This document shows positions 3,045 to 14,416 of a DNA stretch of 49,526 bases, piece after piece. The position numbers were made by a program, and so were the translations under genes. The stretch is from Escherichia phage Henu7: the sequence record NC_054894.1. One strand, 5' to 3'. Each line of letters begins with the position of its first letter. Position 1 is the first letter of the stretch. The notes under the pieces are model-generated. The model made no database searches, was not told the origin of the DNA, and was given only the letters and a program-made list of their open reading frames with translations.

Positions 3045-4001
3045 TTACCGTGTCGGGAGTAAAGTTTCCGGCTTGTAAAGCTTTCGCTCTATCCCTTGCC
3101 GGAAATTATCGTTAATAGGAAGCATCACGTCAAGTCCTCTCTCCTCAGCGGCAATTATTACATCCTGATCAGTTGACCTGCACACTACGCGCATCTTTCG
3201 ATCTCCTTTGTATCTGTGCGCAACAATCTCAACGTTATAACTTGAGAAGCAAGCCCACACCTCCTGGCCTGTAGAGAGGTGAATGTGTTGAGCGTCAACC
3301 CAATCAACGCACAGATAGATCGTGTTGTCAGTTTTACCAGTCACCGCAACGGAGCCGCGCGTATAGTCCTTTGCATAGAAACTTTTCTCGCCTAGCTCGT
3401 CAATCATGAGGATGTTACACATTTCATCATCTAAGCCATCGCCATGCACAAGGTAGCAAGGGATTGCATGAATAAGCGATTCTCCGCCGTTATCCAGCGA
3501 TTTTACGCCTACAGAGTACATTTCATCATCTGGCGTAGCGATGCCCTCAAAAACGCTTAGAGGCGTTTTTAGCACTCCTTTGGTTCTCTCCATTACTGCA
3601 ACGCAGTTTTCATGTGGAGCCTGGGATCCGAAAGAGTAACCTGATGCGCTGGAGGCTCGCTTGTTCGCCTTAACTATATACTCCTGAGGAACCTTTCCGA
3701 GAAAGCGCCCTAAGATGTTGATGCACTCGCTATATGATTCGCCAGTGAGCTTCATTAGCCAGCCAATACCGCTGTCGTTCCCACAACCGTTGCACACTGC
3801 GCCGCCGTCTCCGTCAGTGCTAAGTTTGTCAGTCCAGCGGAATCTGTCTTTACCTCCGCAGTGGGGGCAAGGTTGGTGTTTCTTGTTGAAAACGTCATTG
3901 CTCAATCCGCAAAGGCTTTGTAGCGCATCGCGCCACATCCCTTTCATGTACGGCAAAACGTCCTCTTTCTGAAACATCATGTTTGGGTGTACTTCTTGCA
4001 T
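3045..4001 (-). CDS. DNA primase (zinc-ribbon plus Toprim-like)
   Basis: Start at ATG 4001 (MQEVHP) with GGAG RBS; CPHCGG...CNGCG zinc-binding motif as in phage primases. Confidence 0.65.
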   Translation of the reverse strand: MQEVHPNMMFQKEDVLPYMKGMWRDALQSLCGLSNDVFNKKHQPCPHCGGKDRFRWTDKLSTDGDGGAVCNGCGNDSGIGWLMKLTGESYSECINILGRFLGKVPQEYIVKANKRASSASGYSFGSQAPHENCVAVMERTKGVLKTPLSVFEGIATPDDEMYSVGVKSLDNGGESLIHAIPCYLVHGDGLDDEMCNILMIDELGEKSFYAKDYTRGSVAVTGKTDNTIYLCVDWVDAQHIHLSTGQEVWACFSSYNVEIVAHRYKGDRKMRVVCRSTDQDVIIAAEERGLDVMLPINDNFRQGIERKLYKPETLLPTR

Positions 4002-4059
4002 GACTCGCTCCAATAAAAAAATCGCGTAGCCGGATGATACCAGATACGCGATCTTTGAT

Positions 4060-4589: not shown

Positions 4590-6590
4590 ATGGCAATTCC
4601 AAACATTGATAAACAGCTTTCCGCCTTGGGTGAGGCGGTAATCAAGGCAATTCAAAATCGCTTTACGTTTGGCGAAATCACCCCATACCCTTACCAGTGC
4701 GTTGCTTACACTGAGATCGCAAAACGCATGAAAAATTACGAGCATCCTTTCTTTGTGAAAGCGTCCGTATCTGCTGGCAAAACCATGATTTTTGCAATGG
4801 TAGCGGCTCAGTGCCAGAGAATGGGGCTTAAAATGATGGTTCTTGCTCGCCAGGGTGAGATCGTAGATCAGGATTCAGAGGAGATCAGTAATTTCGGCGT
4901 GCCTAACTCCGTTTACTGCGCGGCGCTGAAACTCAAGGGAGTACACTTCCCCATCGTTGTTGGTTCCGAGGGAACCGTTTCAAATGGACTCTTTAAGGCG
5001 CTTGGTGACTACGTGCCACACGTTATCGGGATTGACGAATGCCACCAAGTAGATTGGGAGGATTTAGCGGAGGCAATCGAAAACGAGGAGCCGTGGGAGC
5101 AAATGACCACGAAAAAAGGCGAGATTGTCCTGAATGGTGACGGATCCCGCGCTCTAAACAATGACGGCGAACCAATGGAGGGAACCGGACGCACGCAGTA
5201 CACGCTTATCATTCGTGAAATGCAGCGCCGATGCAAAGAGACATACGGGCATGAGTTGCGCATTTTTGGAATGACCGGATCTGAGTTTCGCGGCGTGGTT
5301 CCAATCCTGGTGGAAGATAAGCGCCAGCGCGGATTCTGGCGCGAGCAGGTAACGAACATTGATACCAACTACCTGATCAAGTTCGGCTCCGTTGTGCCTA
5401 CAAACTTTGGCTGCGTAGATGGGTTGGGTTATGACCTTTCAGAGTTCACGGCATCCAGCGAGGACGGCGTAGCAGACTTTGACCAGAAAACCCTCAGGAA
5501 GATGGAGGAGAAGATCCATAAAGATGCAACCATGACGCAAAAAATCATGGCACGCGTTCATGAGATCTGCAAAGACCGCAACGGCGTGCTGGTAACTTGC
5601 GCGGGTGAGCGTCACTGTAAAGAGGCCGCCGCCGCACTTCCGCCAGGGGCAACATACAGGATCATCACTGGCAAGACCGGAGAGAAACAACGTAAGGAAT
5701 GGTTAAAAGAGGCATTCGAGGGAAAAGTAAAATACATTTTCCAGGTTCAAGCACTAACAACTGGCGTAAACGTTCCATATTGGGATACTTCCGTTATCCT
5801 GCGCAAAATAGGATCGCTTACACTGCTGATCCAGCTTTTGGGGCGCGGTATGCGACTGTTAAAGAAATGGCACATTGAGCAAGGATTTAAAAAAGACGAT
5901 CACCTTGTTCTCGACTTTGCCGGATGTATGGACGAGTTGGGGCAACTTTACTTTGATCCTATTCTGGAACAAGCGCAGTATCAGCGCCGTGGCGACAACG
6001 GAAAAGATCCTAAATTCTGCCCTGACTGCGGCACGGAAAACTCATTCTATGCACGCCGTTGCGTTCACGTTGACGAAAACGGAAATCGCTGTGAGTATTT
6101 CTGGAAGTATCGAGAGTGCGAGGATCAGGTAGACCCGCGAACGAAAAAGGTTGTCGTTAAAGGTTGCGGCACTAAAAACGACATATCAGCTAGAATTTGC
6201 CGTTGCTGTGACGTGTCGCTTATTGACCCTAACGAAAAGTTATCCGGCAAGCACTACACTAAAAACGATTGGTGTAATGTAAAATCATTCAGAGTTGACA
6301 TGACCAAAAACCAGCGCGGGATCGTGTTCTGTTATGAGCTTGAGTCTCACGGCGAAACGTTCAAAGCTTATGAGCGATTCTTCCCTGAGTCTGACAACCA
6401 GATCTGCAAGACGCTATGGAGGCAAACGGCGCTCAAGCATATTGCAGATCGCAGGATTGCAGGTGTTACTGCGAGCTATCGCAACGCTCGCAAGATTATG
6501 CAAAACGCGCATCACATTATGGCTCCGAAACGCGTTACGCATCGCAAAAACGCGAAAGGAGAGGACATTATTTATCATCGGGAGTTTTGA
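4590..6590 (+). CDS. SF2 DNA helicase (DExH-box) with C-terminal zinc ribbons
   Basis: Walker A SVSAGKT; DECH box (GIDECHQ); Cys-rich C-terminal clusters CPDCG...C..C. Confidence 0.75.
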   Translation: MAIPNIDKQLSALGEAVIKAIQNRFTFGEITPYPYQCVAYTEIAKRMKNYEHPFFVKASVSAGKTMIFAMVAAQCQRMGLKMMVLARQGEIVDQDSEEISNFGVPNSVYCAALKLKGVHFPIVVGSEGTVSNGLFKALGDYVPHVIGIDECHQVDWEDLAEAIENEEPWEQMTTKKGEIVLNGDGSRALNNDGEPMEGTGRTQYTLIIREMQRRCKETYGHELRIFGMTGSEFRGVVPILVEDKRQRGFWREQVTNIDTNYLIKFGSVVPTNFGCVDGLGYDLSEFTASSEDGVADFDQKTLRKMEEKIHKDATMTQKIMARVHEICKDRNGVLVTCAGERHCKEAAAALPPGATYRIITGKTGEKQRKEWLKEAFEGKVKYIFQVQALTTGVNVPYWDTSVILRKIGSLTLLIQLLGRGMRLLKKWHIEQGFKKDDHLVLDFAGCMDELGQLYFDPILEQAQYQRRGDNGKDPKFCPDCGTENSFYARRCVHVDENGNRCEYFWKYRECEDQVDPRTKKVVVKGCGTKNDISARICRCCDVSLIDPNEKLSGKHYTKNDWCNVKSFRVDMTKNQRGIVFCYELESHGETFKAYERFFPESDNQICKTLWRQTALKHIADRRIAGVTASYRNARKIMQNAHHIMAPKRVTHRKNAKGEDIIYHREF

Positions 6591-6592
6591 AT

Positions 6593-7009
6593 ATGGTTAC
6601 TGACAAAGGCGATTATCTGGAATATTACGAACGGGATCCGAGCGACACACGCAAGGAGGATTCACACCAGGTTGATTGTGTGGCGTGGTTGCGCCACCAT
6701 TACCCACACTTGCTCTTTTGGCACACTGTTAATGAGGGGAGCAAGACGATCACCACCGCGCTGCGTGACGAACAGGCCGGATTGCTAAAAGGAGTATCCG
6801 ACTTTGTTATCCTGATTGGTTCTGGTAAATACCCGTTTGCAGCAATAGAGCTAAAGCAAGCCAACAAATCAGGGAAGCGCAAAGCCTCACCAGTCAGCGA
6901 TAACCAGAAAGCTTTCTTGAGCAAGGTCAGAGCGCTTGGTGGATTTGCCGCTGTGTGTTATGGCGTTAAGCAATTCAAGATTGCGATCTCAGATCTTTTA
7001 TGTGAATAG
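6593..7009 (+). CDS. VRR-NUC domain nuclease
   Basis: Start ATG 6593 with GGAG RBS right after helicase stop; motifs GVSDFVIL and AAIELK are PD-(D/E)xK-like. Confidence 0.65.
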   Translation: MVTDKGDYLEYYERDPSDTRKEDSHQVDCVAWLRHHYPHLLFWHTVNEGSKTITTALRDEQAGLLKGVSDFVILIGSGKYPFAAIELKQANKSGKRKASPVSDNQKAFLSKVRALGGFAAVCYGVKQFKIAISDLLCE

Positions 7010-9092: not shown

Positions 9093-10211
9093 ATGATTCA
9101 GAAAATGACAGACCAGCAGTTTAAAGACGCACGAGCGGAGGGTAAAACCTACAAGCAGATCGCGGAGGAATTTGGCTTGAATGTTCGCACAGTTGAGCGA
9201 CGAGCGGCAAACCTTGCTCGCAAGGGTGAGACTGACGCGAAAGGCGCTCCAGGTTTTGCGGTTGTTCGCGAGTCAGTCCTTACGCGTGCGAACGGCGAGG
9301 AAGTTATGCGCTGGACTATCACCAACAAGGATAAAGAGCAGTTGGAGGCATTAATGCAAGCCGCTATGGAAGCATTCGCAGAGGAAGTGCCACGCCTTGA
9401 TCCTCAGCCTGAAAGCCGCAAAGACTACAGCGAGAGCCTAGCGCTATACCCAATCTTTGATATGCACATTGGCGCAATGGCTCACAAGCATGAGTGTGGT
9501 GAGAATTGGGATACGGCAACAGCCGAAAATGTCATGAATGACTTCTTTGATTATGCGGTTGAGTGTGCGCCAAATAGCGAGAAAGCCGTGCTCCTGATTG
9601 GTGGAGATATGCTTCACAGTGACGGCCTTGAGGCTGTAACACCTGCCAGCGGTCACGTTCTGGATCAGGATAGCCGCTACGCCAAACTTGTTTATGTCGC
9701 AATCCGAGCAACGCGCCGCGCTATCTCCTTGATGTTGACCAAGCACAAAGAGGTTGAAATTCAGGTGATCGAGGGCAATCATGACCAATCAGGCATGATC
9801 TGGCTACGCGCAGCAATGGCTGCGGCATACGAAAACGAGCCACGAGTTACGGTTGATGTTTCTCCCCGCGTGGTGCATCACACGCAGTACGGAAAAACCT
9901 TCCTCGCGTATCATCACGGTCACACCGTGCGCAAGCCTGAAACGTTATTGATGATGTGTGCGGCAGATTGGCGCGAGGATTTTGGCAAATCAAAATCAAT
10001 GTATGCTCATGTAGGCCATTGGCATCACCAGACCGTAACAGAAACCAGCCTGGGGATTGTTGAAGTTCACAGCACTATGGCGGCTAAAGATGCGTATGCG
10101 GCACGCGGCGGCTGGCGCTCTCGTCGTCGCGCGGCGGTTATCATCTACGACAAAGAGCACGGCGAGATCGGGAGATTTATGTTCTACCCTGAAATGATGG
10201 AGTCAAAATAA
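9093..10211 (+). CDS. HTH domain fused to calcineurin-like metallophosphoesterase
   Basis: N-terminal HTH YKQIAEEFGLNVRTVERR; metallophosphoesterase motifs DMHIG, GGDMLHSDG, GNHD, HHGH, GHWHH; RBS AAGAGGA. Confidence 0.6.
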   Translation: MIQKMTDQQFKDARAEGKTYKQIAEEFGLNVRTVERRAANLARKGETDAKGAPGFAVVRESVLTRANGEEVMRWTITNKDKEQLEALMQAAMEAFAEEVPRLDPQPESRKDYSESLALYPIFDMHIGAMAHKHECGENWDTATAENVMNDFFDYAVECAPNSEKAVLLIGGDMLHSDGLEAVTPASGHVLDQDSRYAKLVYVAIRATRRAISLMLTKHKEVEIQVIEGNHDQSGMIWLRAAMAAAYENEPRVTVDVSPRVVHHTQYGKTFLAYHHGHTVRKPETLLMMCAADWREDFGKSKSMYAHVGHWHHQTVTETSLGIVEVHSTMAAKDAYAARGGWRSRRRAAVIIYDKEHGEIGRFMFYPEMMESK

Positions 10212-11221: not shown

Positions 11222-11613
11222 AACGATTAGCTTTGGCGGTACTGGTTGCCGCCTCTCTTTCTGGTTGTTCAGCGTCAAGCGCTCTGAGCGGTTTAATCGG
11301 CAGCAAGCCGGAAATCACAGCACAGGCCGGAGCCGAAAACGTAAAGCAAACAGTAGGCGTGACGGCAAAGAATGACGAGAGCAGCAAGCAGGAAAGCACG
11401 ATCAAGGATTCGCAGGTTGGAAAGGTTGACTCCTCCAACAAAAAGAAGGTGAGCACTTCAAGCATCCAGGCTGAGACAATCACAGCCGACAAGATCGAGA
11501 TCAGAAACAGCGAGAGCGATTTGTATGTGATGTTCTTTGCGCTGGCTTGCTTATTTGTTGCTGGCTTTGCCGCTGGCGTTTTTTGGAAGGGCAGAAAAAA
11601 TAAAGGGGCATAA
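11218..11613 (+). CDS. unimolecular spanin (lipoprotein with C-terminal transmembrane domain)
   Basis: Lipobox LSGC at the N-terminus and C-terminal [24 protein letters not shown]; position after endolysin; architecture of the T1-type u-spanin. Confidence 0.7.
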
Positions 11614-11626
11614 TGCCCCTTTTTTC
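11595..11626. terminator. bidirectional intrinsic terminator
   Basis: GGGGCATAATGCCCC hairpin flanked by an A-run and a T-run; ends the lysis cassette (+) and the leftward early operon (-). Confidence 0.7.
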
Positions 11627-11745
11627 ATTCCAGTAGTCTGGCGTTGACTAATACAACTCCGTCCTCGTCGTGCAGGTTGTGCTCCTTTGCCGGATTAGCT
11701 CGCATATCGCTGTACAGGATCAGGAGCAGCGCCGCAATCATTTCG

Positions 11746-12138
11746 TCATGCGATACCGAATTTTTTGCGCAGTGCATCATAATCGCATCTATTAGATTTT
11801 GTGTTGAATAATTCATCGTCGCTTAACTCGTCAAGGTGAAACAGATCGTAAATGTATTTATTGCTCTCACCCTCCAGGCTATACAGTTCAAACCCAAACG
11901 GCCTCTTGTGCGAGCCGTGGCACGTCACCACGCCTTTATCTATCCCAAGATAGCCCAATGTAGCCATTCGCGGTATAAACTCAAGAGAGACGCTTGAGGC
12001 GAATTTGCGAGGCGTCATATTGGCGGCTCTTGCGAGCCGCTCACATTCTTTGTGCTGAAAAACAAATCTGGCTAAGTGCTGACGGTTAAACCAATCGTAA
12101 CTTTCGCAAAACTTATACAGATCCAGCAGAAACATCAT
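11746..12138 (-). CDS. hypothetical protein
   Basis: ATG follows the upstream stop by 3 nt (TGA TAA ATGATG), suggesting translational coupling. Confidence 0.5.
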   Translation of the reverse strand: MMFLLDLYKFCESYDWFNRQHLARFVFQHKECERLARAANMTPRKFASSVSLEFIPRMATLGYLGIDKGVVTCHGSHKRPFGFELYSLEGESNKYIYDLFHLDELSDDELFNTKSNRCDYDALRKKFGIA

Positions 12139-12141
12139 TTA

Positions 12142-13719
12142 TCACCCCATTAAAGCAGGATTAACAAACACGCGCCCATTCGTGAGGCATACGTAATTCA
12201 GATCTTCAAGGATTGGCAGCAAGTGCTCCTCAATTCGCTTCATCACGCCAGCCTGACCTAAGAACGGACGAACCTTTCGCACAGATTCGTAAATCGCTCG
12301 CGCAGTGATAGCGCCCTTATTGGCTTTTCCGAGTCTGGTTATCGTGTCGATAATCTTGATCAACTCTGCATCCTGACCAGCATGACCGGAGGCGTTTGCC
12401 GCGCTAATGTAGGTCTTGCTTAACTCCTGGAACATCAAGAGCGCCTCTTGCATTGTCTCAACGTCAATCTCTCGTGACTTTGTGGCGGTTCCGTTAACGT
12501 CCTGCCAGTTTCGGATCGTATGGATAACGGAGGCCAGGCGAATAACCTGCTTATCCATTTTACCCAACGCGCCGCGTAGCATGGTGTGAGAATATTCTCC
12601 TCCGTCTGCAAGCTTTGGCTCCATTTCCTGGCGTGCCATGTTGAGCACTCGCATAGCGGAGCGGCTAACCTTCAACGAAACGTATTGCTCCGTCATGATA
12701 TTGTGGATCAGCTTGTAATAATCCGCCTTAAGACCCGCATCAACTGGCGTGTAGGTTGTGTCTCCTTTGTCGTCAACAAACTTACGGCGGCCTAAGAATG
12801 ATTCCTCGCGCACCAGCAAGAAGCGCTCAGAAACACCGATACCACGAGCACCAGCCTCCATAATGCCGCTGATTGTTTCGTCCTGCGCAATCACAGCCAT
12901 GCAACCAAGAGCCGTAAAGCTCATGTTGTTCTCTGCGTTTGCACGAGCAATTGAAACGTGACCACTATCCCAAGCCTTTAACACCAATTCGCTGTTAGTC
13001 TTGCGCTCGCTATTGGCGTATGTTAGGCCGAGCAGTGAGTTGATACTTGTTGCCTCGTCCGAGATAACAGCAAAGTTACCCTGGCGGAAGTTGATTTTAG
13101 CCAAACCCTCTGGAGTGGTATCTGAAACAGGAAATACAACGTCGCACAGTTTAGCCAGCTTCTCCTCGTACTCCTCTTTTTCCTCGTAAAGAGCAGCATA
13201 CTCAGTGCCGGAGCGCTCGCTCTTTAATTCCTTTGCGATCCCGTTGAGTTTTGCCTGAATCTTTTTGCGCTCTTTCTTTCGTTGCTCGTTGATGCGCTCA
13301 ACCTCTGCAACAATCGGAGCAATAGCCATTGAGTTGATCGCGGATTTACCAGTAGACGGCGGCTGGCTGGTAACAACGTATAGCGCCGTTGGCTGATCGG
13401 TTCCGTGGTACTCCACGGTGAATCGTCCGAGCATTGCGGCAGACACGCAGCCTACAAAGTGCATATAGGCAGATGAAACAGGGAATTGCACAGACTCAGC
13501 CAGGCTGCGAGACAACTTGCCTACAACGTCGCAATCGTTGCCGAGGGAAATAACAGGGTATTTGTCGTTTCCGCTGTTAATGTCCTTCACGTCACCCCAA
13601 AAACCAGACGAGCGAGAGTATCCGTTTGCCTGGATTGCAACCTTAACGGCGCTCAAGCCTTGAGCCTCAGCCGTTGAAATGATTTGTTGTGGTGTCAGCG
13701 TGGATTGTTCAAAAAACAT
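12142..13719 (-). CDS. P-loop NTPase of unknown function (possibly DUF3987/YfjI-like replication-associated ATPase)
   Basis: Walker A SQPPSTGKS and Walker B FAVISDE; 525 aa; preceded by full regulatory unit with TATAAT; family assignment is from memory and unverified. Confidence 0.5.
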   Translation of the reverse strand: MFFEQSTLTPQQIISTAEAQGLSAVKVAIQANGYSRSSGFWGDVKDINSGNDKYPVISLGNDCDVVGKLSRSLAESVQFPVSSAYMHFVGCVSAAMLGRFTVEYHGTDQPTALYVVTSQPPSTGKSAINSMAIAPIVAEVERINEQRKKERKKIQAKLNGIAKELKSERSGTEYAALYEEKEEYEEKLAKLCDVVFPVSDTTPEGLAKINFRQGNFAVISDEATSINSLLGLTYANSERKTNSELVLKAWDSGHVSIARANAENNMSFTALGCMAVIAQDETISGIMEAGARGIGVSERFLLVREESFLGRRKFVDDKGDTTYTPVDAGLKADYYKLIHNIMTEQYVSLKVSRSAMRVLNMARQEMEPKLADGGEYSHTMLRGALGKMDKQVIRLASVIHTIRNWQDVNGTATKSREIDVETMQEALLMFQELSKTYISAANASGHAGQDAELIKIIDTITRLGKANKGAITARAIYESVRKVRPFLGQAGVMKRIEEHLLPILEDLNYVCLTNGRVFVNPALMG

Positions 13720-13774
13720 CTTAAAGTCTCCTTGTTGGTTGACCCGTATTATAGGTCAACCATCTTACAGCCTT

Positions 13775-13795
13775 TTGGCAATTCGTGCTATTTTA
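13775..13795 (-). promoter_or_regulatory. palindromic element plus hairpin plus TATAAT upstream of P-loop gene
   Basis: Minus strand reads AAAATAGCACGAATTGCCAAAA, hairpin GGTTGACC-TATAAT-ACGGGTCAACC, RBS AAGGAG. Confidence 0.45.
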
Positions 13796-14033
13796 AACGT
13801 TCAACTTTTGCGAGAAGTTTCGATCCGTCATGGCTCCAGCATTCGAGCGTCTCAGGATCAAAGTCTAAAGACCTGTGGAATGTGTGACCAATCAGCAGAT
13901 ATCCGCCACGTTGACGAATCTGATAAACCGTTTCGCCAACCGTGAATATTGAAATGTCGCTGTATGTCACCTTAAATCTGTTAGCCAGCATACTCTTTGG
14001 TATGTGGCGCGTGTATTCTACACCTTTAATCAT
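13788..14033 (-). CDS. hypothetical protein
   Basis: ATG overlaps the stop of the upstream gene (ATGA). Confidence 0.45.
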   Translation of the reverse strand: MIKGVEYTRHIPKSMLANRFKVTYSDISIFTVGETVYQIRQRGGYLLIGHTFHRSLDFDPETLECWSHDGSKLLAKVERLK

Positions 14034-14416
14034 GAGTATTTCGCCTCGAATAAGTAAGCACCACCAGCAGAGAAACCAACCTCCTCCCGATACAGAGTGA
14101 AGCGGTCGCCGTCCTCGTCAAACACGTAGCCAGCAACGCCGCCCAACACGCGCCCTTGTTCGATCTGGTAGCGATTGCCAGCCTTAAACGTTTTCTTGTG
14201 CTTCATGCTATGATCAACCCAAGTACATTTTATTGTTTTGGTCTTGATCTCGCGGAAATCATTAATGTTAGCCTCAGTCCACTTGCTACCTTTCGTCAGT
14301 TCTCGAACCTGGAAAACCTCCATTTCAACGAATTCACCACTGTCATTGACAGGAACCATTGCCGCTTTAAAGCGAGCTTTCATTAATTTGTTGTCAGAGT
14401 TACGGATAACTTTCAT
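14030..14416 (-). CDS. hypothetical protein
   Basis: Start ATG 14416 (MKVIRNSD) with RBS AAAGGGGA; preceded by palindromic unit with TATTAT. Confidence 0.5.
   Translation of the reverse strand: MKVIRNSDNKLMKARFKAAMVPVNDSGEFVEMEVFQVRELTKGSKWTEANINDFREIKTKTIKCTWVDHSMKHKKTFKAGNRYQIEQGRVLGGVAGYVFDEDGDRFTLYREEVGFSAGGAYLFEAKYS

What the first reader, a model, noticed from the sequence alone, without database searches (positions are those of the whole stretch)
12142..13719. Large P-loop ATPase of unknown function heading a leftward early sub-operon
The 525-aa protein has Walker A (SQPPSTGKS) and Walker B (FAVISDE) motifs but does not resemble the main helicase (4590..6590) or the primase. It has its own palindrome/hairpin/TATAAT unit and is translationally coupled to a downstream 130-aa ORF (TGA TAA ATGATG). 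It may be a DUF3987/YfjI-like replication ATPase (from memory) or an accessory NTPase with an anti-defence or host-takeover role. The leftward operon around it also carries the C5-methyltransferase-like gene and eight small unknown ORFs.
Basis: partly seen in the sequence, partly recalled or inferred. Interest (0 to 1): 0.55.

Follow-up and report, generated by a model that had tools for sequence, protein, structure and literature searches.

The report
T1-type phage MCM-like replication helicase
The 525-aa P-loop protein is the standard DUF3987 (MCM-like AAA+) DNA helicase carried by all T1-like phages, most likely the phage's replication-fork helicase working with its separate primase, so the finding is real but ordinary and already annotated in public genomes.

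Summary
A 525-aa ORF lies at 12142..13719 (-), with Walker A QPPSTGKS and Walker B FAVISDE. It has a TGA-TAA-ATG junction to a 130-aa ORF and an upstream hairpin carrying TATAAT. The window is a T1-like phage (Drexlerviridae), 97% identical here to Escherichia phage IsaakIselin, where the gene is annotated 'putative helicase'.

DUF3987 was predicted in 2016 to be an MCM-related replicative helicase. One member was shown in 2025 to be an ATP-dependent 5'-3' helicase that binds its primase. Distant homologs sit next to, or are fused with, primases.

No evidence supports an anti-defence role.

The 130-aa partner is a winged-helix protein, linked in 80/80 T1-like loci. The upstream 'unit' is one copy of the known T1-family 21-nt intergenic repeat. 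Low interest; already known.

The parts
12142..13719 (-). Gene for the 525-aa DUF3987 (MCM-like AAA+, 'SF6') helicase; ortholog of T1 ST9 and IsaakIselin bas10_0048
13528..13719 (-). N-terminal ~64-residue helical region (three short helices plus a loop; W41 invariant). Fused relatives carry primase, PriCT or DnaB-N domains at this position. Proposed primase-docking region (inferred).
   Evidence: DSSP of the model. Alignments to the fusion proteins begin at residue 65-73. Fusion architectures.
12427..13488 (-). AAA+ ATPase core (residues 78-431), including a long coiled-coil hairpin after the Walker A helix (helices 125-167 and 171-190)
   Evidence: Extent of the Pfam match. DSSP. About 250 residues superpose on MCM AAA+ domains.
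13342..13365 (-). Walker A / P-loop QPPSTGKS (K125)
   Evidence: Translation. Invariant Q119 P120 P121 G124 K125 S126 in 30 homologs.
13054..13074 (-). Walker B FAVISDE (E222 invariant; D221 is Ala in some relatives)
   Evidence: Translation. Alignment.
12820..12831 (-). Invariant SERF motif (R299). Candidate trans-acting arginine finger, resembling the MCM 'SRF' motif (inferred).
   Evidence: Translation. E298 and R299 invariant, S297 nearly so. It lies just before strand 300-304.
12145..12387 (-). C-terminal winged-helix domain (residues 445-525)
13774..13790 (-). Copy of the Drexlerviridae intergenic repeat box TAGCAC-N3-TTGYYAAA. Its TAG is the stop codon of the upstream 81-aa ORF.
   Evidence: 24 hits against 1.56 expected. 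Described for TLS, Stevie and T1 (PMC11447400, PMC4319613).
13737..13761 (-). 8-bp-stem hairpin GGTTGACC-TATAATACG-GGTCAACC carrying a perfect TATAAT 22 nt after TTGCCA. Promoter-like or RNA element of unknown function.
   Evidence: Compensatory stem changes in relatives. The 22-nt spacing holds in 13 of 16 exact copies.
13728..13733 (-). Shine-Dalgarno AAGGAG, 8 nt before the ATG
   Evidence: Sequence. Conserved in relatives.
11746..12138 (-). Translationally coupled 130-aa winged-helix protein with an invariant acidic SD(D/E)ELF motif. Ortholog of T1 ST10; restricted to T1-like phages.
11625..11816 (-). 63-aa ORF overlapping the 3' end of the 130-aa ORF by 71 nt; last gene of the leftward block
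   Evidence: PHROG 9539 E=5e-20. Homolog found in 38 of 80 related loci.
11602..11622 (.). Bidirectional intrinsic terminator between the leftward block and the convergent lysis cassette
   Evidence: T1 has an annotated terminator at the same position.
3045..4013 (-). Stand-alone Zn-ribbon primase, proposed functional partner (inferred from relatives)
   Evidence: Pfam Zn_Ribbon_Prim E=2.6e-13, with no helicase domain. Its ortholog (31% identical, E=2e-47) lies directly upstream of a DUF3987 gene and overlaps it in L004/L005.

Best explanation
The gene encodes the T1-family version of the DUF3987 helicase. The protein has an MCM-like AAA+ ATPase core, a C-terminal winged helix and a short N-terminal helical region.

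Proposed mechanism:
- It assembles into a ring, probably a hexamer.
- ATP is bound by Walker A K125 and hydrolysed with Walker B E222 and an arginine finger (R299 of the invariant SERF motif) supplied by the neighbouring subunit.
- The ring translocates on single-stranded DNA and unwinds the phage replication fork.
- It works with the phage's separate Zn-ribbon primase (3045..4013).
- The host DNA polymerase III synthesises the DNA, because the phage has no polymerase gene.
- The translationally coupled 130-aa winged-helix protein is a lineage-specific accessory made in step with the helicase, possibly a DNA-binding or loading factor.

What is shown: family membership, fold, motif conservation, linkage to primases in relatives, and linkage to the 130-aa ORF.

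What is inferred: ring assembly, the arginine-finger assignment, 5'-3' polarity (by analogy with AgaPH), physical contact with the primase, and the role of the 130-aa protein.
For: - **Family.** Pfam DUF3987 scores 140 bits against a cut-off of 27. PHROG 2373 'DNA helicase' gives E=3e-237.
- **Motifs.** Walker A, Walker B, SERF and RGxxGKxD are invariant down to 35% identity.
- **Published work on the family.** DUF3987 was linked to MCM by HHsearch and proposed as a phage replicative helicase with a C-terminal wHTH, often next to or fused with primases; the paper says N4 dns, a DUF3987-AEP fusion, is essential for replication (PMC4889955). PriCT-DUF3987 AgaPH is an ATP/dATP-dependent 5'-3' helicase that needs Walker A and B and binds its PrimPol (PMC11724360).
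- **Context in relatives, tested here.** Four phage contigs with homologs of 35-37% identity carry the gene in the replication module. It overlaps or abuts a Zn-ribbon primase in three of them, and one of those primases is an ortholog of the window's primase. Among 32 de-replicated loci, the downstream neighbour matches Zn_ribbon_DnaG in 8 and Zn_Ribbon_Prim in 4 of 27, and an SF2 helicase in 6. The upstream neighbour is a Zn-ribbon primase in 2-3 of 13.
- **Fusions.** Relatives are fused to Zn_ribbon_DnaG, BT4734-like AEP, PriCT_2 and the DnaB N-terminal domain.
- **Rest of the genome.** The other helicase is RadD-like SF2 plus VRR-NUC. The primase has no helicase domain. No DNA polymerase is annotated in the 97%-identical IsaakIselin genome, and the TLS paper says T1 and TLS lack one.
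Against: - No member of the T1-like branch has been tested biochemically or genetically in anything I could find.
- In T1-like phages the gene is not next to the primase. It lies about 8 kb away in a block with a methyltransferase and small accessory ORFs, one of which is a dispensable defence trigger.
- The link to MCM rests on a predicted fold. Sequence profiles do not reach any PDB entry.
- The protein lacks the MCM N-terminal OB/Zn domain.
- Polarity and oligomeric state were not testable here.
- From memory, and not verified: older physiology (Bourque and Christensen 1980) reported that T1 DNA synthesis needs host elongation dna genes. If dnaB is among them, this protein would not be the only fork helicase. 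I could not check this.
Confidence: 0.72

Rival explanations
1. Initiator-helicase. The protein recognises the phage origin through its C-terminal winged helix (alone or with the 130-aa winged-helix partner), melts it and then acts as the helicase, as SV40 large T antigen or P4 alpha do. This overlaps with the best explanation and adds an origin-recognition role.
For: The C-terminal domain resembles the winged helices of Orc2, Cdc6 and MCM. A coupled winged-helix partner is conserved in 80/80 T1-like loci. No other initiator candidate is annotated in the relative. The TLS paper reports no identified origin or iterons.
Against: No origin-like repeats were found in or next to the gene; the only repeat nearby is the genome-wide 21-nt box. 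In MCM the C-terminal winged helix is not a sequence-specific origin reader. The distant branch lacks the 130-aa partner.
Confidence: 0.3
2. Recombination or restart motor. The protein is a branch-migration or fork-remodelling AAA+ helicase, comparable to ComM, RuvB or MCM8/9. It would serve recombination-dependent replication and concatemer formation rather than act as the primary fork helicase.
Against: Recurrent adjacency and fusion are with primases and the DnaB N-terminal domain, not with recombinases. The recombination role already has a dedicated SF2 helicase and nuclease pair. AgaPH behaves as a replicative partner of a PrimPol.
Confidence: 0.1
3. Loader or hijacker of the host DnaB helicase, a lambda P or DnaC analogue. 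It would bring host DnaB to phage DNA rather than unwind DNA itself.
For: It is an AAA+ ATPase in a phage that relies on the host polymerase. From unverified memory, T1 may need host elongation dna genes.
Against: The structural neighbours are MCM-clade helicases, not DnaC, DnaA or IstB. A relative carries the DnaB N-terminal domain fused in place of the DnaB motor domain, which implies substitution for DnaB rather than loading of it. A family member unwinds DNA by itself.
Confidence: 0.05
4. Accessory NTPase with an anti-defence or host-takeover role.
For: The gene shares an operon with a methyltransferase and small accessory ORFs. One of these, 14030..14416, is the ortholog of a Mokosh type I trigger.
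Against: There is no PADLOC match. The gene is a core gene, present in 922 phage records across all Drexlerviridae sampled. Its catalytic motifs are invariant. In distant relatives its context is always the replication module.
Confidence: 0.03

Closest known systems
AgaPH, the PriCT-DUF3987 helicase of a Seonamhaeicola mobile element (Nucleic Acids Res 2025, PMC11724360)
   Same: Same Pfam family (DUF3987), with conserved Walker A and B and a small C-terminal domain. A protein of the same architecture (P0244, PriCT_2 + DUF3987) aligns at 29% identity over 438 residues, E=3e-43. AgaPH is oligomeric, an ATP/dATP-dependent 5'-3' helicase, and it binds its primase-polymerase.
   Different: The window protein has no PriCT domain; a ~64-residue helical N-terminus takes its place. 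Its presumed primase partner is a Zn-ribbon DnaG/T7-type primase, not an AEP PrimPol, and is encoded 8 kb away. No activity has been measured for it.
MCM replicative helicases of archaea and eukaryotes (SF6 AAA+)
   Different: There is no detectable sequence match to the MCM family, and identity in the structural alignments is 11-18%. The MCM N-terminal OB-fold/Zn domain is absent. A long coiled-coil insert follows the Walker A helix. The one DUF3987 member tested runs 5'-3', opposite to MCM.
Phage T1 ST9 'DNA helicase' and IsaakIselin bas10_0048 'putative helicase'
   Same: Direct orthologs (57.9% protein identity; 97% nucleotide identity) with the same synteny: helicase, then a ~130-aa ORF, then a terminator, then the convergent lysis cassette.
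   Different: None of substance. In T1 an HNH endonuclease gene abuts the start of the gene where this window has the repeat/hairpin unit.
Phage N4 dns protein (DUF3987 helicase with a C-terminal AEP primase)
   Same: Placed in the same family by PMC4889955, which says it is essential for N4 replication. This is the only genetic evidence I found that a phage DUF3987 protein serves replication.
   Different: In N4 the helicase and primase are one polypeptide. I did not compare it directly here.
Cch/Cch2 helicases of SCCmec and the SaPI5 primase-helicase (DUF927-type MCM-like helicases)
   Different: They belong to a different Pfam family and are much weaker matches than MCM itself.

Membership tests
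DUF3987 (Pfam PF13148) | Match to the family HMM above the curated gathering score | tested here: met
   140.3 bits against a cut-off of 27, E=1.2e-40, residues 78-431 on profile positions 1-352 of 364.
DUF3987 (Pfam PF13148) | Conserved Walker A (GxxxxGK[ST]-like) and Walker B (DE) motifs | tested here: met
   QPPSTGKS and FAVISDE. K125, S126 and E222 are invariant in 30 homologs. D221 is Ala in some relatives.
DUF3987 (Pfam PF13148) | [quoted passage not shown] | tested here: met
DUF3987 (Pfam PF13148) | Gene adjacent to, or fused with, an AEP or DnaG-type primase | tested here: not met
   In this window the primase (3045..4013) is about 8 kb away in another transcription unit. The feature is met in relatives: adjacency in L002-L005 and in about half of 32 de-replicated loci, and fusions. 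It is a frequent association, not a strict requirement.
DUF3987 (Pfam PF13148) | ATP-dependent 5'-3' DNA unwinding and oligomerisation (shown for AgaPH) | not testable with these tools
   Needs purified protein. Only PMC11724360 speaks to this, and for a distant member.
MCM family / SF6 AAA+ helicases | AAA+ core with the MCM-type fold | tested here: met
MCM family / SF6 AAA+ helicases | Sequence match to the MCM domain (PF00493) | tested here: not met
   Only DUF3987 is reported by Pfam at E<=0.1. No PDB sequence is matched by the protein or its profile.
MCM family / SF6 AAA+ helicases | N-terminal OB-fold / zinc-finger domain that forms the DNA-binding collar | tested here: not met
   Only about 64 residues of short helices and loop precede the AAA+ core, with no beta-rich domain.
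MCM family / SF6 AAA+ helicases | Trans-acting arginine finger in an SRF motif | tested here: inconclusive
   An invariant SERF motif (R299) lies just before strand 300-304. I had no residue-level superposition or multimer model to confirm its position.
DnaB/T7 gp4-type (SF4, RecA-fold) replicative helicases | RecA-type DnaB_C motor domain | tested here: not met
   No DnaB_C match, and the fold is AAA+/MCM-like. A relative fuses the DnaB N-terminal domain to DUF3987 in place of the DnaB motor.
Helicase loaders (DnaC/IstB, lambda P) | Similarity to the DnaC/DnaA-clade AAA+ domain or to lambda P | tested here: not met
Terminase / packaging ATPase | Terminase large-subunit ATPase-nuclease domains | tested here: not met
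   No such Pfam match. The phage's terminase genes are annotated elsewhere in the 97%-identical relative.
Known anti-phage defence or counter-defence proteins (PADLOC-DB) | Match to any defence-system model | tested here: not met
   No match at E<=0.01 for the helicase or the 130-aa ORF.

The most novel reading that the evidence does not exclude
In T1-like phages the DUF3987 helicase and its strictly linked 130-aa winged-helix partner might form a self-contained origin-recognition and helicase-loading module. The partner's invariant acidic SD(D/E)ELF motif would serve as a docking peptide. The module would let the phage build forks on its own DNA without host DnaA, DnaB or DnaC, using an MCM-like motor that runs 5'-3' with a bacterial-type primase. 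That combination has not been described mechanistically.
Probability: 0.2. Interest if true: 0.45.

Novelty: already known. Interest (0 to 1): 0.2.

Why it matters
It matters little as a discovery. The gene is a core, widely annotated replication gene of a classic phage family, and its protein family has a published prediction and, since 2025, a biochemical precedent.

The useful outcome is a corrected picture of the T1-type replication module. The likely fork helicase is this MCM-like DUF3987 protein, paired with a stand-alone Zn-ribbon primase. The larger SF2 protein, often taken to be the replication helicase, is RadD-like and sits with a VRR-NUC nuclease.

T1-like phages are abundant therapy and model phages, and no one appears to have tested their replication proteins. 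The helicase-primase pair and the conserved winged-helix partner are therefore clear, cheap targets for experiments.

Two side observations may be of more practical interest than the ATPase itself:
- The known 21-nt repeat has a fixed promoter-like geometry.
- An ortholog of a Mokosh trigger lies two genes upstream.

Tried and rejected
- **PDB by sequence.** Sequence and profile searches found nothing credible (best E=0.34-0.47, unrelated proteins), so the MCM link rests on fold comparison only.
- **NCBIfam and PADLOC.** Neither gave a match for the helicase or the 130-aa ORF.
- **Profile-seeded homolog search.** A second search did not reach beyond the first (170 against 169 proteins). The exhaustive representative search was needed to see the wider family.
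- **Sigma-70 promoter.** The consensus scan found no canonical promoter directly upstream of the gene. The TATAAT lies 22 nt, not 16-18 nt, after the TTGCCA of the repeat box, so I do not call it a standard promoter.
- **Mokosh trigger.** I suspected that the 130-aa ORF was the '128-aa protein of unknown function' of SECphi27 that triggers Mokosh type I. The paper's supplement shows it is a different gene, the ortholog of 14030..14416.
- **T1 genetics and host dna-gene requirements.** Literature searches found nothing usable. Searches for defence-escape mutations in the T1-like helicase also found none.
- **First viral-contig scan.** It returned only close T1-like relatives. A second scan seeded on the distant branch was needed to test primase adjacency.
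- **K50_evo30 annotation.** I checked whether orf130 is split in K50_evo30, as its annotation suggests. The reading frame is intact, so the split is an annotation artefact.
- **Primase neighbour counts.** These are given as ranges because the tool reports counts per family, and one protein may match both Zn-ribbon families.
Full report
**Observation**

The window holds a 525-aa ORF at 12142..13719 on the minus strand, with an ATG start.
- Walker A (QPPSTGKS) lies at 13342..13365 and Walker B (FAVISDE) at 13054..13074.
- The stop codon is followed by TAA and then ATGATG, so the 130-aa ORF (11746..12138) starts 3 nt after the stop.
- Upstream, a perfect 8-bp inverted repeat, GGTTGACC...GGTCAACC (13737..13761), carries TATAAT in its loop. 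An AAGGAG Shine-Dalgarno follows, 8 nt before the ATG.

Two qualifications apply.
- The gene does not head the leftward gene block. It is third from the distal end, and the block stops at a bidirectional terminator (11602..11622) facing the convergent lysis cassette.
- The upstream unit is one copy of a genome-wide repeat, described below.

**Source of the window**

This stretch is 97% identical to Escherichia phage IsaakIselin (Bas10; Drexlerviridae, Tempevirinae). It is 91-97% identical to several Enterobacter, Klebsiella and Escherichia phages. In IsaakIselin the gene is bas10_0048, 'putative helicase'. A tblastn search finds orthologs in 922 phage records, 907 of them full length. These include T1 itself (ST9, 'DNA helicase', 57.9% identity) with the same local synteny. 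The gene is therefore a core gene of T1-like phages.

**Family**

Pfam assigns residues 78-431 to DUF3987 (PF13148) at 140 bits against a cut-off of 27. PHROG 2373, 'DNA helicase', matches end to end. An exhaustive profile search finds 6,217 cluster representatives at E<=1e-3.

Many relatives are 760-970 aa long with the DUF3987 module in the C-terminal half. Ten were scanned:
- Four carry recognisable primase-related domains at the N-terminus: Zn_ribbon_DnaG, BT4734-like AEP, PriCT_2, and a weak NrS-1 polymerase HBD match.
- A fifth carries the N-terminal domain of DnaB.
- The other five show only DUF3987.

The PriCT_2 fusion aligns with the window protein at 29% identity and the DnaB-N fusion at 30%, over about 440-460 residues. 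Both alignments start near residue 65-73.

**Motifs**

Across 30 homologs down to 35% identity, the invariant positions include:
- Walker A: Q119, P120, P121, G124, K125, S126.
- Walker B: F216, S220, E222. D221 is Ala in a subset.
- IAQDE at 277-281.
- E298 and R299, within a SERF motif that resembles the MCM 'SRF' arginine finger.
- R259, between two short strands.
- RGxxGKxD at 382-389.

**Fold**

AlphaFold2 with this alignment gives a confident model (pLDDT 89.3, pTM 0.86).
- Foldseek independently lists MCM subunits in all top 50 places.
- The last 80 residues form a winged helix that matches the winged helices of Stn1, Orc2, ScpA and Cdc6.

Differences from MCM:
- There is no sequence-level match.
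- There is no N-terminal OB/Zn domain.
- A long coiled-coil hairpin follows the Walker A helix.

**What is already published**

Kazlauskas et al. 2016 linked phage DUF3987 proteins to MCM by HHsearch. They noted the C-terminal wHTH and the frequent adjacency or fusion to AEP or DnaG primases. They proposed these proteins as replicative helicases, and they noted that N4 dns, one such fusion, is essential for replication (PMC4889955). Their 2018 paper repeats the prediction (PMC5862659).

In 2025 a PriCT-DUF3987 protein, AgaPH, was purified. It is oligomeric, unwinds 5'-tailed and forked DNA (5'-3' polarity) with ATP or dATP, needs its Walker A and B residues, and binds its primase-polymerase (PMC11724360).

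**Context, tested here**

The window's primase (3045..4013) has the T7-gp4-type zinc ribbon and no helicase domain. Its best NCBIfam match is the repair helicase RadD (E=3e-57, below the equivalog cut-off). A VRR-NUC nuclease gene follows it. That combination points to repair or recombination, not to a ring helicase at the fork. No DNA polymerase is annotated in the relative, and the TLS paper states that T1 and TLS lack one.

Four phage contigs carry DUF3987 homologs of 35-37% identity, and in all four the gene lies inside the replication module:
- primase then DUF3987, with overlapping stop and start codons (two contigs);
- DUF3987, then primase, then SF2 helicase, then exonuclease;
- DUF3987, two small ORFs, a Zn-ribbon protein, SF2 helicase, then VRR-NUC.

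One of these neighbouring primases is a full-length ortholog of the window's primase (31% identity, E=2e-47).

I then examined 32 loci from viral contigs, de-replicated at 80% identity:
- The downstream neighbour matches Zn_ribbon_DnaG in 8 and Zn_Ribbon_Prim in 4 of 27. The two counts may overlap.
- The downstream neighbour is an SF2 helicase in 6 of 27.
- The upstream neighbour is a Zn-ribbon primase in 2-3 of 13.

T1-like phages thus have the same parts as these relatives, but the DUF3987 gene has moved to a separate leftward block.

**Most likely mechanism**

The protein is a ring-forming, MCM-like AAA+ helicase that unwinds the phage fork and cooperates with the separate Zn-ribbon primase, while host Pol III synthesises the DNA.
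- Shown: family membership, fold, catalytic motif conservation, and primase linkage in relatives.
- Inferred: hexamer formation; R299 as the arginine finger; R259 as a DNA-contacting hairpin residue; 5'-3' polarity; contact with the primase through the N-terminal ~64 residues, which occupy the place of the primase-related domains in fusions.

Confidence is about 0.7.

The rivals are set out in the rival-explanations section:
- an added origin-recognition role (compatible with the main model);
- a recombination or restart motor;
- a loader for host DnaB;
- an anti-defence NTPase.

The main weaknesses:
- I found no experiment on any T1-branch protein.
- The gene is separated from the primase.
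- An unverified memory says that T1 DNA synthesis needs host elongation dna genes, and I could not check it.

**The 130-aa partner**

- It belongs to PHROG 2794 and has about 100 clusters, all from T1-like phages.
- It follows the helicase gene in 80 of 80 T1-like loci, usually within 14 nt.
- T1 ST10 is its ortholog (46% identity, E=6e-41).
- It carries an invariant acidic SD(D/E)ELF motif near the C-terminus.
- The distant DUF3987 branch lacks it.

It is a lineage-specific accessory, possibly a DNA-binding or loading factor. This is speculation.

**The upstream unit**

The box TAGCAC-N3-TTGYYAAA occurs 24 times with up to 2 mismatches (16 exact by regex) against 1.6 expected, always on the local coding strand. 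It is the 21-22-nt intergenic repeat already reported for TLS, Stevie and T1. Its function is listed as an open question (PMC11447400, PMC4319613).

I add two points.
- Almost every copy is followed by a hairpin of variable sequence. The copy before the helicase gene shows compensatory stem changes in relatives.
- A -10-like hexamer (at least 4 of 6 matches, with A2 and T6) lies exactly 22 nt after TTGYYA in 13 of 16 exact copies. The copy before the helicase gene has a perfect TATAAT.

This geometry looks like a promoter with a non-standard upstream element. It does not fit the sigma-70 spacing, and the consensus scan does not call it.

**Verdict**

The finding is real, ordinary and already known.

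Noticed in passing
window, 16 exact copies, e.g. 4515, 7007, 8817, 13790(-), 14488(-), 15792(-), 16622(-), 16962(-), 18308, 19335, 20738, 21706, 23207, 24209, 28383, 32651(-): The known T1-family 21-nt intergenic repeat (TAGCAC-N3-TTGYYAAA) occurs 24 times against 1.6 expected. Nearly every copy is followed by a hairpin of variable sequence. In 13 of 16 exact copies a -10-like hexamer sits exactly 22 nt after TTGYYA, with the SD about 60 nt from the start of the box. This fixed promoter-like geometry, with a non-canonical upstream element, bears on a question the TLS paper lists as open.
   Followed up: partly
window 14030..14416 (-): This 128-aa ORF (PHROG 2684; one search listed it as 149 aa from a TTG) is 62% identical (E=1e-57) to the SECphi27 'protein of unknown function (128aa)'. 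That protein triggers the Mokosh type I defence system, and it is dispensable, because the escaper is a frameshift at codon 7. It lies two genes upstream of the helicase gene in the same block.
   Followed up: yes
window 11746..12138 (-): The 130-aa partner is a winged-helix protein with an invariant acidic SD(D/E)ELF motif (D107, L110, F111). This may be a protein-docking peptide. The protein is found only in T1-like phages, and some records name it 'YdbL' without visible basis.
   Followed up: partly
window 11625..11816 (-): A 63-aa ORF overlaps the last 71 nt of the 130-aa ORF in another frame. It matches PHROG 9539 (E=5e-20) and was found in 38 of 80 related loci. It is not annotated in IsaakIselin.
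   Followed up: no
window 4590..6590 (+) and 6416..7009 (+): The large 'DNA helicase' is an SF2 protein whose best NCBIfam match is RadD/YejH (E=3e-57, below the cut-off). A VRR-NUC nuclease follows it. The same pair recurs next to DUF3987 genes in distant phages (L006, L002, L004). It looks like a repair or recombination module rather than the fork helicase.
   Followed up: partly
window 9093..10211 (+): This 372-aa protein has an N-terminal sigma-70 region-4-like HTH (Pfam E=1e-5) and, by eye, metallophosphatase motifs (DMH...GDMLH...GNHD). A DNA-binding phosphoesterase of unknown role. K50-type records and a Macdonaldcampvirus annotate a similar neighbour as 'DNA repair exonuclease'.
   Followed up: no
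alignment A1, Walker B column (residue 221 of the window protein): In several homologs (P0100, P0104, P0115, P0116, P0118, P0119) the Walker B aspartate is alanine (ISAEA) while the glutamate stays invariant. This is unusual for an active AAA+ ATPase and may say something about metal coordination in this family.
   Followed up: no
protein P0187 (666 aa, from the representative search): A natural fusion of the DnaB N-terminal (primase-interacting) domain with a DUF3987 motor, 30% identical to the window protein over 458 residues. Here an MCM-like motor appears to have replaced the RecA-type motor of DnaB.
   Followed up: partly
L007 (phage T1) 1962..2501: In T1 an HNH endonuclease gene abuts the start codon of the helicase gene, at the place where this window has the repeat/hairpin unit. 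Homing endonucleases seem to insert at this junction in some T1-like phages.
   Followed up: no
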